Shown here in pieces: positions 7,803 through 9,545 of a DNA stretch of 13,173 nucleotides. Below the pieces are notes generated by a model, which made no database searches, had not been told where the DNA came from, and saw only the letters and a list, made by a program, of their open reading frames with translations. Origin of the DNA: an uncultured bacterium (GTDB taxonomy: Bacteria; Hydrogenedentota; Hydrogenedentia; Hydrogenedentales; JAEUWI01). A program made the position numbers and the translations under genes. The stretch is taken from positions 1 through 13,173 of the forward strand of contig CAXBPH010000200.1 in the NCBI GenBank assembly GCA_963977445.1, read 5' to 3'. Positions within the stretch are counted from its first letter, which is position 1. The number at the start of each line of letters is the position of its first letter.

Positions 7803-9545
7803 ATGGACCCATCAACTGGGAATGCAGTCACGCGCGGGGCCTTCGCGCGTTTTTTCGTATCCACCGACCACAAGGTCGTCGCCATTCAATATGTGGTGAC
7901 GGCCCTCGTGATGTTGTTCGTGGGTTTCTTGTTCATGCTGCTCATGCGCTGGCAGCTTGCCTATCCCTATCAATCATTGCCCTTCATCGGCGGCTGGTTT
8001 GCCGATGACAACCCCGTTATGCCCGGCGGGGTGATTACGGCGGGCTTTTACAACCAGCTTGGGGCCATGCACGGCACCATCATGATTTTCCTCGCCGTGG
8101 TGCCGCTGGTCGCTGGTGGTTTTGGCACCTATCTGGTCCCCCTGATGATCGGCGCAAAGGGCCTTGCCTTTCCCCGTCTCAGTAAGCTCGGCTACTGGTG
8201 CTACCTGGGCGGTGCCTTCATTCTCCTCGGCAGCTTTTTTCTTCCCGGTGGCGCGGCCAATTCCGGCTGGACGGCCTATCCGCCCCTATCGGTCATCGAA
8301 AACGCAGGCCAGACCACCTGGCTCATTGGCGTGTCCTTCGTCTATTTTTCTTCCCTGTTGTTGAGCATTAATATCCTCACGACTATTGTTCAATTGCGCA
8401 CCGAAGGGCTCAGCTTCATGCGGCTGCCCTTTTTCGTGTGGAGTCAGCTCGTTACAAGTTTATTGCTCCTGTTGGCGTTCCCTCCCCTGGCGGCTGCTGC
8501 GGTTATGCAGTTGATGGACCGGGTAGGCGGCACCAGTTTTTTCCTTCCCAGTGGCCTGGTGATCAGTGGGGAAGCCCTTGATGTGAGTGGGGGAGGCAGC
8601 GCCCTTTTGTGGCAGCACCTGTTCTGGTTCCTGGGCCATCCCGAGGTCTATGTGTTGTTGTTGCCCGCCTTCGGAATCGTTGCCGAGGTGATTGTCGTCA
8701 ATACACGCAAACCTCTTTTCGGCTATAAGGGCATGGTTTACGCCACACTGTTTCTGGGGCTTATGTCCATGCTTGTCTGGGCGCACCATATGCTCCTTAC
8801 CGGCATGGGCACGGCCATGAGTGAATTCTTTCAGATCACGACCATCATCATCTCCCTGCCCTCCGTCATTGTGGCCTCTTCTCTGGTGGTCTCGCTGTGG
8901 GGCGGCTCCATACGCTTTACGGTGCCCATGCTCTACGCCCTGGCCTTCCTGCCCATGTTTGCCATCGGTGGTCTCACCGGCCTCCCCCTGGCGATGTCGG
9001 CGACCAACATCATGCTTCACGACACCTACTACGTGATTGGGCACTTTCACTATATCGTCGCGCCGGGAACCCTCTTTGCCGTCTTCGCGGGCATCTACCA
9101 TTGGTACCCCAAGGTGACCGGCAGAAGAATGAACGACGTGCTCGGCCATCTTCATTTCTGGCCGACCCTGATTTGTATGAACGGTATTTTCTCCCACCTG
9201 ATTCTTCAGGGCTTTGCCGGTGTATCCCGTCGTCTCTATGATGGGGGTGAAACCTACGCCCACGGTGCGGAAGTATTTGGACTCAACTCCGGGGCGACCT
9301 GGGCCGCATTTGGCCTGCTGGTGGTCCAGATTTTCTTCATCATCAACTTTTTTTACAGCATGAAATGGGGTCGAAAAGTGGACAGCAATCCCTGGAAGGC
9401 GACCTCACTGGAATGGGCTGCGCCGTCACCGCCCTTGCCGGGAATTAATTTCGAATCGCCTCCAATCGCCTATCGCGATTCCATGACCTATAGCGAAGTG
9501 GGTGCCGATAAAGATTACACCCCACAATGGGAGGCGAACTCATGA
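7803..9545 (+). CDS. ctaD: Heme-copper oxidase subunit I, A-family-like (CoxN-like), with atypical proton-channel residues
   Basis: STDHK, MHG (H90), [16 protein letters not shown] (H279, E281, Y283), WAHH (H328, H329), [11 protein letters not shown] (H414, H416), GVSRR. CoxN-like GTSFFLP...[13 protein letters not shown] insert and [10 protein letters not shown] tail. Confidence 0.96.
   Translation: [580 protein letters not shown]

What the first reader, a model, noticed from the sequence alone, without database searches (positions are those of the whole stretch)
8115..8195. Coordinated loss of the D-channel entrance while its upper half is retained
Seen: [28 protein letters not shown] versus canonical GGFGNxLxPLMIGAxDMAFPRxNxxSxW, giving T109 (N80), G120 (D91), S127 (N98) and G130 (S101). 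Codons ACC, GGC and AGT are each one base from Asn, Asp and Asn codons. Flanking structural residues are conserved, as are the Y19, S156/S157, N163 and E242 equivalents. The C-terminal His usually near the channel mouth (PPxH) also looks absent (SPPLPGINF; less certain). Inference: the changes are targeted at functional positions, which suggests a closed channel and not random decay.
Basis: partly seen in the sequence, partly recalled or inferred. Interest (0 to 1): 0.72.

Follow-up and report, generated by a model that had tools for sequence, protein, structure and literature searches.

The report
Oxidase clade without its D-channel mouth
This intact, strongly conserved respiratory oxidase from an uncultured Hydrogenedentota bacterium belongs to a whole clade that has lost the normal entry point for the protons it would pump, so it is a natural test of how such enzymes feed and pump protons.

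Summary
Subunit I (7803-9545, +) aligns without gaps here to the Paracoccus oxidase: T109, G120, S127 and G130 replace N113, D124, N131 and S134. Y35, S192/S193, N199, E278, Y280 and all six metal histidines are kept.

It is neither a sequencing error nor decay. The same pattern holds in a clade of 60 rows (57 distinct), nearly all of the named ones Hydrogenedentota. dN/dS is 0.04-0.06.

- The C-terminal His is gone.
- The His-rich N-terminal tail is gone.
- The glycine between S193 and N199 on helix IV is Leu.
- A new Tyr sits near the top of the channel.
- D399 above the haems is Asn.

The parent family already lacks the K-channel lysine. It carries an extra, strictly conserved Glu in subunit II and extra serines at K-channel positions.

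Best reading, inferred and not shown: a cupredoxin-fed aa3-type oxygen reductase whose D-channel mouth is shut. It would take its protons through a remodelled K-type route, with reduced or no pumping.

I class it as a new variant of a known kind. The scan had already noted a comparable loss in an Acidobacteriaceae oxidase.

The parts
7803..9545 (+). Haem-copper oxidase subunit I (580 aa, P0001), A-family, HPEVY type
   Evidence: Pfam COX1, 419.9 bits. TIGR02891 CtaD scores 539.8 bits, below its 670.75 cut-off. Matches 1ar1_A at E 4.6e-112.
7803..7868 (+). N-terminal cytoplasmic tail before the DHK motif. It has no His and is rich in Arg.
   Evidence: In the 20 residues before DHK, D-intact relatives average 2.7 His (44 of 51 have at least 2). 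The D-less core clade averages 0.29 (3 of 51). H23, the equivalent of R. sphaeroides H26, is kept in 60 of 60.
8115..8198 (+). Loop II-III and flanks, the D-channel entrance segment, residues 105-132
8127..8129 (+). T109 in place of N113 (Pd) / N121 (Rs), one half of the asparagine gate
   Evidence: Core clade: T39, N10, G5, S5, I1 of 60. D-intact relatives: N in 51 of 51.
8145..8147 (+). M115, a clade-specific residue five positions before the lost Asp
   Evidence: Core clade M in 60 of 60. D-intact relatives Q in 49 of 51.
8160..8162 (+). G120 in place of the entrance Asp, D124 (Pd) / D132 (Rs)
   Evidence: Core clade: N37, G22, S1 of 60. D-intact relatives: D in 51 of 51.
8181..8183 (+). 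S127 in place of N131 (Pd) / N139 (Rs), the other half of the asparagine gate
   Evidence: Core clade: S48, N7, G5 of 60. D-intact relatives: N in 51 of 51.
8190..8192 (+). G130 in place of S134 (Pd) / S142 (Rs)
   Evidence: Core clade G in 60 of 60. D-intact relatives S in 50 of 51.
8343..8345 (+). Y181, a clade-specific Tyr on helix IV. It sits next to the S189 (Pd) / S197 (Rs) position near the top of the channel.
   Evidence: Core clade Y in 60 of 60. D-intact relatives I in 50 of 51.
8349..8372 (+). Helix IV channel face. S183/S184 and N190 are retained, and L187 replaces the Gly between them (G196 Pd / G204 Rs).
   Evidence: L187: core clade L59, I1 of 60; D-intact relatives G in 50 of 51. 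The i, i+3/4, i+7 spacing puts L187 on the same helix face as S184 and N190 (read from the sequence; inference).
8637..8651 (+). H279-P-E281-V-Y283: a CuB ligand, the D-channel end Glu and the cross-link Tyr, all retained
   Evidence: E, Y and H are each present in 60 of 60.
8766..8882 (+). K-channel region. S322 (Rs G327), S351 (Rs A356) and S354 (Rs T359) are polar. V357 replaces K354 (Pd) / K362 (Rs). A358 is at Rs I363 and S360 at Rs S365.
   Evidence: There is no Lys in any of 169 rows of the family. S322 and S351 are in 60 of 60 core rows and 51 of 51 D-intact rows. Position 358 is small (A43, G12, S3 of 60) only in the core clade; D-intact relatives have L in 49 of 51. The K-channel residue list is from PMC10341450.
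9006..9008 (+). N402 in place of D399 (Pd) / D407 (Rs), a proton-accepting residue of the water cluster above the haems
   Evidence: Core clade N in 58 of 60. D-intact relatives D in 51 of 51. Residue table in PMC12901375.
9441..9443 (+). G547 in the column of the C-terminal His at the channel mouth (bovine H503)
   Evidence: D-intact relatives: H in 51 of 51. Core clade: D17, A11, G8, E5, P5, R4 and others of 60. [quoted passage not shown]
7004..7726 (+). Secreted cupredoxin (C-x2-H-x2-M) with a carboxypeptidase-regulatory-like C-terminal domain; the likely electron donor
   Evidence: Only weak Pfam hits, below cut-off. The gene is found upstream of subunit I in many related loci and in 15 of 18 fetched D-less regions.
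9527..10132 (+). Short (201 aa) subunit III. It overlaps the end of subunit I by 19 bases.
   Evidence: COX3 and CyoC-like hits. In the D-less clade the conserved polar residues S33, S78, T139 and N63 are A, A, L and P (15 rows against 46).
10145..10611 (+). Two small membrane-protein ORFs (68 and 89 aa)
   Evidence: No Pfam family. Weak homologues sit at the same place in related loci.
10616..11440 (+). Subunit II with a CuA site (H179, C226, C230, H234, M237). A71 is at the K-entrance Glu position. E78 is an extra mid-membrane Glu. Q228 is at the Mg-ligand Glu position.

Best explanation
The gene encodes the catalytic subunit of a functional, cupredoxin-fed, haem-A-type (aa3-like) oxygen reductase. 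It belongs to a Hydrogenedentota clade in which the normal cytoplasmic mouth of the D proton channel has been dismantled step by step.

Step one removed:
- the entrance Asp;
- the Ser above it;
- the two gate Asn residues;
- the C-terminal His at the mouth;
- the His/Glu-rich N-terminal tail.

Step two, in the core clade:
- a Leu replaced the Gly on the water-lining face of helix IV;
- a Tyr appeared near the top of the channel;
- an Asp above the haems (D399) became Asn.

The parent family had already replaced the K-channel lysine of subunit I. It carries a strictly conserved extra Glu in the second membrane helix of subunit II and extra Ser residues at K-channel-lining positions.

My reading is that the enzyme now works with one uptake route, this remodelled K-type route. 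That would parallel B- and C-family oxidases, with reduced or no proton pumping.

Shown: the substitutions, their clade-wide fixation, purifying selection, and intact metal sites and operon.

Inferred: that the D mouth no longer conducts, that the subunit II Glu stands in for the lysine, and the effect on pumping.
For: Residue mapping to the Paracoccus structure sequence.

Clade-wide counts in 60 core rows against 51 D-intact relatives:
- D124 -> N37/G22/S1
- S134 -> G60
- G196 -> L59
- new Y181 in 60
- D399 -> N58
- the C-terminal His column is His in 51 of 51 relatives and mostly D/A/G/E/P/R in the core

The N-terminal His-rich tail is lost. Subunit III loses conserved Ser/Thr/Asn.

Only 13 of 218 invariant columns changed, and 4 of them are among the 8 literature D-channel residues (P = 4.8e-4).

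The core clade is monophyletic with the trait columns removed (support 99). Its sisters L190 and L193 have entrance changes only.

dN/dS is 0.040-0.062 for subunit I against L004, L050 and L194, and 0.044-0.074 for subunit II.

All six His ligands, Y280, E278 and H403/D404 are present in 60 of 60. CuA ligands are intact. Haem A synthase is present in the genome.

K route:
- No Lys in 169 family rows.
- S322 and S351, at R. sphaeroides G327 and A356, are invariant (residue list from PMC10341450).
- Subunit II E78 is present in 17 of 17 D-less and 39 of 40 D-intact rows. Twenty-nine of 30 oxidases from outside this family have Pro/Thr there and one has Val.
- One relative has Lys at that position (L211).
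- In the core clade the position of Rs I363 becomes small (58 of 60) and the position of Rs S365 becomes Ser (50 of 60).
Against: - E281, Y30, S183 and N190 stay almost invariant (60, 60, 59 and 58 of 60). That is odd if the channel is dead.
- Thr and Ser at the gate can still hydrogen-bond water, and Gly at 120 and 130 could widen the mouth rather than close it.
- 22 of 60 core rows, including most of the query's own genus, have Asp or Glu at the former His position. This could be a relocated entrance acid. The query itself has Gly there.
- H23 (Rs H26), which hydrogen-bonds D132 in simulations (PMC10341450), is kept.
- The orientation of L187, and the closeness of subunit II E78 to the old Lys site, are inferred from helix periodicity. 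I did not see them in a structure.
- In the query and its genus the usual K-entrance Glu of subunit II is Ala (9 of 17 D-less rows).
- The independent-pairs test had too few independent events to show correlated evolution (3 pairs, p = 0.5).
Confidence: 0.55

Rival explanations
1. The D channel still works, with a re-engineered mouth and no Asp. Small and hydroxyl residues (T, G, S, G) would form a wider, water-filled funnel. In many members an Asp or Glu at the former C-terminal His position would act as the proton collector. Protons would still reach E281 and the enzyme would still pump.
For: E281, Y30, S183/S184 and N190 are kept at 58-60 of 60 (S184 at 49 of 60). 22 of 60 core rows have D or E in the His column, including most of the query's genus. 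H23 is kept. Recalled, not from a call: in E. coli bo3 an acidic residue moved within the loop restores pumping to the Asp135Asn mutant.
Against: The query has Gly at the relocated position, and other subclades have A, G, P or R. The His-rich N-terminal antenna is lost and the loop becomes basic. Leu replaces the channel-face Gly in 59 of 60. Subunit III loses polar residues. D399 is neutralised. Recalled, not from a call: neutral replacements at the gate Asn, such as N139T, uncouple pumping in R. sphaeroides.
Confidence: 0.25
2. The enzyme has no cytoplasmic proton route at all. It would take substrate protons from the periplasmic side, as cNOR does. It would then be a non-electrogenic scavenger of O2, or of NO, fed by periplasmic donors.
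For: Both textbook N-side routes lack their key residues. Periplasmic-side acidic and His residues are remodelled in the core clade: positions 81, 230 and 402 are lost, 166 and 490 are gained. Most genomes with this oxidase also have a canonical COX1, so it could be an accessory enzyme. All donors in the operon are periplasmic.
Against: The K-type route shows conserved polar residues and a conserved membrane Glu in subunit II. The cross-link Tyr and three CuB His residues fit an O2 reductase and not a dedicated NOR (Murali 2024, passages seen). One 94%-complete genome (G065) showed only this oxidase. No specific periplasmic channel was identified.
Confidence: 0.12
3. It is a sequencing or assembly error, or a decaying pseudogene.
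For: No raw reads of the source sample could be laid on the codons.
Against: The same residues occur in independent assemblies at 81-91% identity (L165-L171), in other loci of the phylum search and in metagenome proteins. The frame is open. dN/dS is 0.04-0.06. All metal ligands are intact.
Confidence: 0.01

Closest known systems
A1-type aa3 cytochrome c oxidase of Paracoccus denitrificans / Rhodobacter sphaeroides (PDB 1AR1, 1QLE, 1M56)
   Same: Best solved matches (E 4.6e-112 and 1.5e-109). Shared features are the six His ligands, the HPEVY motif with Glu and the cross-link Tyr, Mg-site H403/D404, a CuA subunit II and a subunit III.
   Different: It lacks N113, D124, N131, S134, K354, S291, the C-terminal His and D399. 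In subunit II the K-entrance Glu is Ala and the Mg-ligand Glu is Gln. The gene order is cupredoxin-I-III-small-small-II. It scores below the CtaD equivalog cut-off.
B-family ba3 oxidase of Thermus thermophilus
   Same: This is what the clade most likely works like: no active D pathway and a single K-type route whose entrance involves subunit II. In ba3 the Mg-ligand Glu of subunit II is also Gln (PMC12901375 table; Sousa 2011).
   Different: It is not a member. The sequence nests inside the A family. It keeps the A1 Glu. At the K354, T351 and S291 positions it has V, S and A, not the B-type Thr, Ser and Tyr (for the definition).
A-family COX1 without the K-channel lysine in acidophilic Fe(II) oxidisers and relatives (Degli Esposti et al. 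2020 preprint, 10.1101/2020.03.01.968255)
   Same: K354 is replaced by Ile or another hydrophobic residue. The subunit II entrance Glu is replaced. Cupredoxins are part of the chain (passages seen).
   Different: Those enzymes are reported to keep the D channel and are typed A2. This clade loses the D mouth and is HPEVY (A1-like). I did not test phylogenetic relatedness to them.
Proposed A-to-B transition forms, e.g. the Nitrosopumilus maritimus oxidase (Han et al. 2011, as cited by Murali et al. 2024), and archaeal family-A D/K-channel variants (PMC8239418)
   Same: Natural loss of the D channel within, or at the edge of, the A family. The cited papers link this to adaptation to low O2 (passages seen).
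   Different: Those are archaeal lineages, whereas this is a bacterial clade nested in a cupredoxin-linked aa3 family. Han et al. 2011 is not held in the library, so I could not compare their residues.
Earlier scan note e1-5140317: Acidobacteriaceae A1-type oxidase with the D-channel Asp replaced by Arg and the Mg site lost
   Same: A conserved oxidase operon lacking the entrance Asp. In my set L052 (Thermoanaerobaculia) also has Arg at that position.
   Different: It is a different genome and lineage. Here the Mg-site H403/D404 are kept. I did not examine that window.

Membership tests
Haem-copper oxidase superfamily, oxygen reductase | Six conserved His ligands (haem a, haem a3, three for CuB) and the His-linked Tyr in helix VI | tested here: met
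   H90, H279, H328, H329, H414, H416 and Y283 align to the Paracoccus ligands. Each is present in 60 of 60 clade rows. Pfam COX1 scores 419.9 bits.
A-family, subtype A1 (Pereira / Sousa classification) | [quoted passage not shown] | tested here: met
   E281; 60 of 60.
A-family, subtype A1 (Pereira / Sousa classification) | D-channel residues D124, N199, N113, N131, Y35, S134, S193, E278 (list in Sousa 2011, PMC3084760) | tested here: not met
   Four of eight are present (Y30, S184, N190, E281). D124, N113, N131 and S134 are G, T, S and G.
A-family, subtype A1 (Pereira / Sousa classification) | K-channel residues K354, T351, S291, Y280 | tested here: not met
   The residues are V357, S354, A294 and Y283. 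The Lys and S291 are absent.
A-family, by phylogeny | Branches within A-family subunit I sequences | tested here: met
   It nests inside a family whose sisters are canonical D+K oxidases. No B- or C-family outgroup was included.
CtaD/CoxA equivalog (NCBIfam TIGR02891) | Score at or above the curated cut-off of 670.75 bits | tested here: not met
   539.8 bits.
Cytochrome c / cupredoxin-oxidising type (CuA subunit II) | CuA ligands H, C-x3-C-x3-H-x2-M | tested here: met
   H179, C226, C230, H234 and M237. They are conserved in all rows that reach the site (C 15 of 15; B 39-40 of 40).
B-family oxygen reductase | No D-channel residues, plus the alternative K channel (Thr, Ser, Tyr at the K354, T351, S291 positions) | tested here: not met
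   The D mouth is absent, but E278 and the upper residues are present. The K-channel positions are V, S and A.
Dedicated NO reductases (cNOR/qNOR and the newer NOR families) | Loss of the cross-link Tyr and/or an altered CuB/FeB ligand set (Murali 2024) | tested here: not met
   The Tyr and three CuB His residues are kept.
K-lysine-less A-family COX of Fe(II) oxidisers (Degli Esposti 2020) | K354 hydrophobic, subunit II E78 (Pd) replaced, D channel conserved | tested here: inconclusive
   The first two are met in the query (V357, A71). The third is not. No sequences of that group were available to test relatedness.

The most novel reading that the evidence does not exclude
A bacterial A-family oxidase lineage has independently turned itself into a one-channel enzyme. 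It first moved the K-channel's protonatable group from a subunit I lysine to a subunit II membrane glutamate. It then dismantled the D-channel mouth, its histidine antenna and part of the proton-accepting cluster above the haems, yet kept the A1 glutamate. If so, this is a living, stepwise series: D-intact relatives, then entrance-only forms such as L190 and L191, then the core clade. The series would replay the proposed A-to-B transition. It would let the role of E286/E278 be tested without a D channel.
Probability: 0.35. Interest if true: 0.72.

Novelty: new variant of a known kind. Interest (0 to 1): 0.55.

Why it matters
The entrance Asp of the D channel is treated as essential in A-type oxidases. 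Sousa et al. 2011 use the D- and K-channel residues to tell the oxidase types apart.

Here the Asp and its surrounding proton-collecting residues have been removed and kept removed under strong purifying selection, across a whole clade. The catalytic centre and the Glu at the channel's end remain.

That gives graded natural variants for three open questions:
- whether pumping needs the D route;
- what E286/E278 does without it;
- whether giving up a channel trades coupling for oxygen affinity.

In practice, annotation pipelines name these proteins generically. Several database names read 'cbb3-type cytochrome c oxidase subunit I'. Metabolic reconstructions of Hydrogenedentota would therefore credit them with full aa3-type coupling.

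Tried and rejected
- **Raw-read check of the three codons.** The look-up of sequencing runs listed only two DNA runs, holding 0.08 and 0.05 of the sampled words. No RNA holder was listed. Laying them gave contig fragments of relatives and no cover of 8157-8215. Neither the codons nor expression could be checked.
- **Metagenome scan.** 80 loci were kept and only one (L123) lacked the entrance Asp. It added little.
- **Representative search at 50% clustering.** The family collapses into a few representatives, many of them fragments. I did not use it further.
- **Independent-pairs test of correlated loss.** There were only 3 independent pairs (p = 0.5). It is underpowered, so I make no claim of statistically shown co-evolution.
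- **Search for a compensating new carboxylate or His on the cytoplasmic side.** In subunit I the only acidic gains (166, 490) are in periplasmic loops. Subunits III and II showed none.
- **Structure prediction.** Not run. The tool returns no coordinates, so channel geometry, the orientation of L187 and the distance from subunit II E78 to V357 could not be read.
- **Literature.** Searches found no description of this clade. Search 88, for Gly196/Gly204 mutants, found nothing relevant. Han et al. 2011 is not held (with the id and DOI recalled from memory).
- Searches failed on coordinates and were corrected. One search failed on term format and was corrected. One search failed on report format and was re-sent.
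Full report
**What is there.** The window holds a same-strand block:
- a secreted cupredoxin with a C-x2-H-x2-M copper motif (7004-7726);
- haem-copper oxidase subunit I (7803-9545, 580 aa, P0001);
- a short subunit III (9527-10132);
- two small membrane ORFs (10145-10351 and 10342-10611);
- a CuA subunit II (10616-11440).

Subunit I is a clear Pfam COX1 (419.9 bits). It falls below NCBI's CtaD equivalog cut-off (539.8 against 670.75 bits). The named best database relatives are Candidatus Hydrogenedentes/Hydrogenedentota. 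The window is contig C200 of a 7.1-Mb, 94%-complete genome.

**Checking the observation.** phmmer against solved structures aligns P0001 to Paracoccus denitrificans subunit I (1ar1_A, E 4.6e-112). There is no gap across the segment in question. Counting along that alignment gives:
- T109 = N113
- G120 = D124
- S127 = N131
- G130 = S134

Retained residues are Y30 = Y35, S183/S184 = S192/S193, N190 = N199, E281 = E278 and Y283 = Y280. All six metal-binding His residues and the Mg-site H403/D404 are also present. Sousa et al. 2011 list exactly these eight residues as the D channel of A1 enzymes (passage seen). The His of the C-terminal PPxH motif is Gly547 here. The only slip is that the stated end, 8195, stops one codon short of the quoted peptide.

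**Error and decay are excluded.**
- Among the query plus its 120 best database relatives, the D124 column reads D79, N28, G13, S1 and the S134 column S78, G42, R1. E278, Y280 and the His ligands are invariant.
- In 135 genomes of the phylum, 38 carry this oxidase family. Of the 30 loci returned, 18 show the full D-less pattern (one is the window itself), 3 show partial patterns and 9 are D-intact.
- Independent assemblies of the same genus, at 81-91% protein identity, have the same four residues or near variants (L165-L171).
- dN/dS for subunit I against three relatives is 0.040-0.062 with saturated dS. For subunit II it is 0.044-0.074.
- The whole operon is conserved around the D-less genes. 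All five operon genes matched in 14 of the 18 fetched regions, and the cupredoxin in 15 of 18.

**A clade, and a stepwise history.** An IQ-TREE (quick, LG+G4) of 124 rows places all D-less sequences inside a larger family and next to D-intact Hydrogenedentota sequences.

I then removed the nine trait columns and the N-terminal tail and rebuilt the tree. The 60-row core clade (57 distinct sequences) stayed monophyletic with support 99. Its sister group is L190 (T-N-T-G) plus L193 (V-D-T-A) with support 91. L191 (T-G-T-G) then sits with two D-intact sequences. L052 and L123, both on long branches, fall elsewhere. The entrance may therefore have been lost two or three times. On that tree the D124 state needs at least 4 changes. 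With only 3 independent pairs, the correlation test is underpowered (p = 0.5).

The early-branching forms have the entrance changes and lack both the C-terminal His and the N-terminal His. They still have Q115, I181, G187 and D402. This suggests the mouth went first and the other changes followed.

I compared the 60 core rows with 51 D-intact relatives:

| Position (Pd / query) | Core clade (60) | D-intact relatives (51) |
|---|---|---|
| D124 / 120 | N37, G22, S1 | D51 |
| S134 / 130 | G60 | S50 |
| N113 / 109 | T39, N10, G5, S5, I1 | N51 |
| N131 / 127 | S48, N7, G5 | N51 |
| Q / M115 | M60 | Q49 |
| G190 / Y181 | Y60 | I50 |
| G196 / L187 | L59, I1 | G50 |
| D399 / N402 | N58 | D51 |
| C-terminal His / 547 | D17, A11, G8, E5, P5, R4 and others | H51 |

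- L187 lies between S184 and N190 at i+3 and i-3, on the same helix IV face as two residues that an MD study uses to delimit the D channel (R. sphaeroides S201 and N207; PMC10341450). A Leu there would be expected to take the place of channel water. This is an inference from helix periodicity.
- Y181 is next to the position of R. sphaeroides S197, near the top of the channel.
- D399 (Rs D407, bovine D364) is listed among the proton-accepting residues of the water cluster above the haems (table seen).
- In the 20 residues before the DHK motif, D-intact relatives average 2.7 His, and 44 of 51 have at least two. The core clade averages 0.29 (3 of 51 rows with a long enough tail) and is richer in Arg/Lys.
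- Subunit III of the D-less clade has Ala, Ala, Leu and Pro where relatives conserve Ser33, Ser78, Thr139 and Asn63 (15 against 46 rows).
- I found no newly conserved cytoplasmic carboxylate or His in subunits I, II or III.
- Of 218 columns invariant in the relatives, 13 are replaced in the clade, and 4 of the 13 are among the 8 literature D-channel residues (P = 4.8e-4).

**The K channel.**
- V357 replaces K354 and A294 replaces S291.
- This is a property of the whole parent family. None of 169 rows has Lys there (I, L, V or M), whereas all 25 canonical outgroup rows do.
- The family spans Verrucomicrobiota, Acidobacteriota/Vicinamibacteria, Neomarinimicrobiota, Planctomycetota, Ignavibacteriota and Hydrogenedentota.
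- It shares the gene order cupredoxin ... I-III-small-small-II. In L006, haem A and haem O synthase genes lie between the cupredoxin and subunit I, and SCO1 and DUF420 follow subunit II.
- The K route looks remodelled rather than lost. Ser is invariant at two positions that PMC10341450 uses to delimit the K channel and that are Gly and Ala in canonical enzymes: S322 = Rs G327 and S351 = Rs A356.
- Subunit II carries an extra Glu (E78, query numbering) seven residues after the classical entrance Glu, in the same transmembrane helix. It is present in 17 of 17 D-less and 39 of 40 D-intact rows. Of 30 oxidases from outside this family, 20 have Pro there, 9 have Thr and 1 has Val. One relative (L211) has Lys there.
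- Seven residues is two helical turns on one face. [quoted passage not shown] I therefore propose this Glu as the lysine's stand-in (inference).
- In the D-less core clade the K route changes further. The position of Rs I363 becomes Ala/Gly/Ser in 58 of 60 (Leu in 49 of 51 relatives). The position of Rs S365 becomes Ser in 50 of 60 (Ala in 40 of 51).
- In the query's genus the classical entrance Glu of subunit II is Ala (9 of 17 D-less rows), with a clade-specific Tyr three residues before it.

**Most likely mechanism.** The metal centres, the cross-link Tyr, CuA, the conserved cupredoxin and a genomic haem A synthase point to a working, cupredoxin-fed oxygen reductase. The changes are concerted:
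- removal of the entrance acid, the gate asparagines and both His antennae;
- hydrophobic filling of the channel face;
- loss of polar residues in subunit III;
- neutralisation of an acid above the haems;
- widening of a Ser-lined K route.

This fits an enzyme that has given up the D route and takes its protons through one K-type route, as B- and C-family oxidases do. Those families are reported to pump about half as many protons per electron (passages seen). I put this at about 0.55.

What it does not explain is why E281, Y30, S183 and N190 remain nearly invariant. Either they are structurally needed, or E281 is fed from somewhere I cannot see.

The main rival (0.25) is a still-conducting channel with a neutral, wider mouth, helped in many members by Asp or Glu at the former His position (22 of 60). 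The query itself has Gly there.

A periplasmic-uptake, non-electrogenic scavenger is possible (0.12). Error or decay is effectively excluded.

**Genomic setting.** The same genome also has a canonical A2-type caa3 operon, with YSHPAVY, an intact D124/N113/N131/S134 set, the Lys and a haem c domain on subunit II (L001). It also has a qNOR-like 768-aa protein (L003). Across the phylum, 76 of 135 genomes have a COX1. Most genomes with the D-less enzyme also have a canonical one. G065 (94% complete, 710 contigs) showed only the D-less one. The enzyme is therefore usually an accessory oxidase, but perhaps not always.

**Comparison with what is known.**
- By the Pereira/Sousa residue criteria it fails the A-type D- and K-channel tests. 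It passes the active-site, Glu and phylogenetic ones, so it is an A-family member with non-canonical channels.
- It works most like a B-family enzyme but is not one.
- A-family COX1 proteins with K354 replaced by Ile, and the subunit II Glu replaced, have been described for acidophilic iron oxidisers. Those enzymes keep the D channel (preprint passages).
- Repeated K-channel loss and D-channel variants have been mapped in archaeal family A.
- Loss of the D channel is part of the proposed A-to-B transition.
- My searches found no description of this bacterial clade, or of the combination 'no entrance Asp, no Lys, Glu kept'. Supplements of those papers, including the bioRxiv preprint's figures S9-S11, were not seen and may list related sequences.
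- This scan had already noted an Acidobacteriaceae oxidase with the Asp replaced by Arg (e1-5140317). The phenomenon is therefore not unique to this window.

**Verdict.** I class it as a new variant of a known kind, of moderate to good interest. The mechanism is inferred and testable.

Noticed in passing
window 10847-10849 (subunit II E78); L211 subunit II: The whole K-lysine-less family has an extra, near-invariant Glu in transmembrane helix 2 of subunit II (56 of 57 rows). Twenty-nine of 30 oxidases from outside this family have Pro or Thr at this position and one has Val. One relative has Lys there. It may replace the subunit I lysine of the K channel.
   Followed up: partly
window 11297-11299 (subunit II Q228, motif CAQLC): The Glu between the two CuA cysteines, which ligates Mg in canonical enzymes, is Gln in 15 of 15 D-less and 39 of 40 D-intact family rows. 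Thermus ba3, which has no Mg, shows the same replacement (PMC12901375 table).
   Followed up: partly
window 7004-7726: An amicyanin-like cupredoxin (FKCDVHPWM) with a carboxypeptidase-regulatory-like C-terminal domain. It scores below Pfam cut-offs but is conserved upstream of this oxidase family in many phyla. Earlier scan notes describe the same protein as the oxidase's electron donor.
   Followed up: partly
window 3532-6642 (-): A 1036-aa PVC-type haem-binding protein (DUF7133, HEAT repeats, C-terminal cytochrome c domain), divergently transcribed from the oxidase operon. It keeps this position in the genus (70-84% identity in L050 and L194-L198). It could be a periplasmic dehydrogenase-cytochrome feeding the cupredoxin.
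   Followed up: no
window 9441-9443: The query has Gly (GGA) where 17 of the 18 nearest relatives have Asp or Glu at the former C-terminal His position. This is either a real difference or a single-base error, and no reads were available to check.
   Followed up: partly
window 8547-8582 (residues 249-260): A 12-residue insertion ([12 protein letters not shown]) in the periplasmic loop between helices V and VI, relative to the Paracoccus enzyme. Its conservation was not examined in detail.
   Followed up: no
window 2-1482: The C-terminal part of a CopA-type multicopper oxidase, followed by CopB. These are copper-resistance genes a few kb upstream of a copper-dependent oxidase operon.
   Followed up: no
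window 2376-3335 (-) and 11527-12939 (-): A Tat-signal amidohydrolase-family protein, and an FAD-dependent oxidoreductase with a Golvesin C-terminal domain, flank the block. Their relation to the oxidase is unknown.
   Followed up: no
L003 (G000:C124): The same genome has a 768-aa qNOR-like haem-copper protein. Next to it is a 238-aa protein that looks like an iron-centre repair (hemerythrin-like) protein. The neighbour was not run against Pfam.
   Followed up: no
names: Several database copies of this family are named 'cbb3-type cytochrome c oxidase subunit I'. That does not fit an HPEVY, CuA-partnered enzyme.
   Followed up: no
L052 (Thermoanaerobaculia) and L123 (metagenome): These are long-branch family members with their own D-less patterns (T-R-H-G and S-G-S-G). 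They fall away from the Hydrogenedentota clade when the trait columns are removed, so they may be independent losses. L052 also has the small residue and the Ser at the K-route positions 358 and 360.
   Followed up: partly
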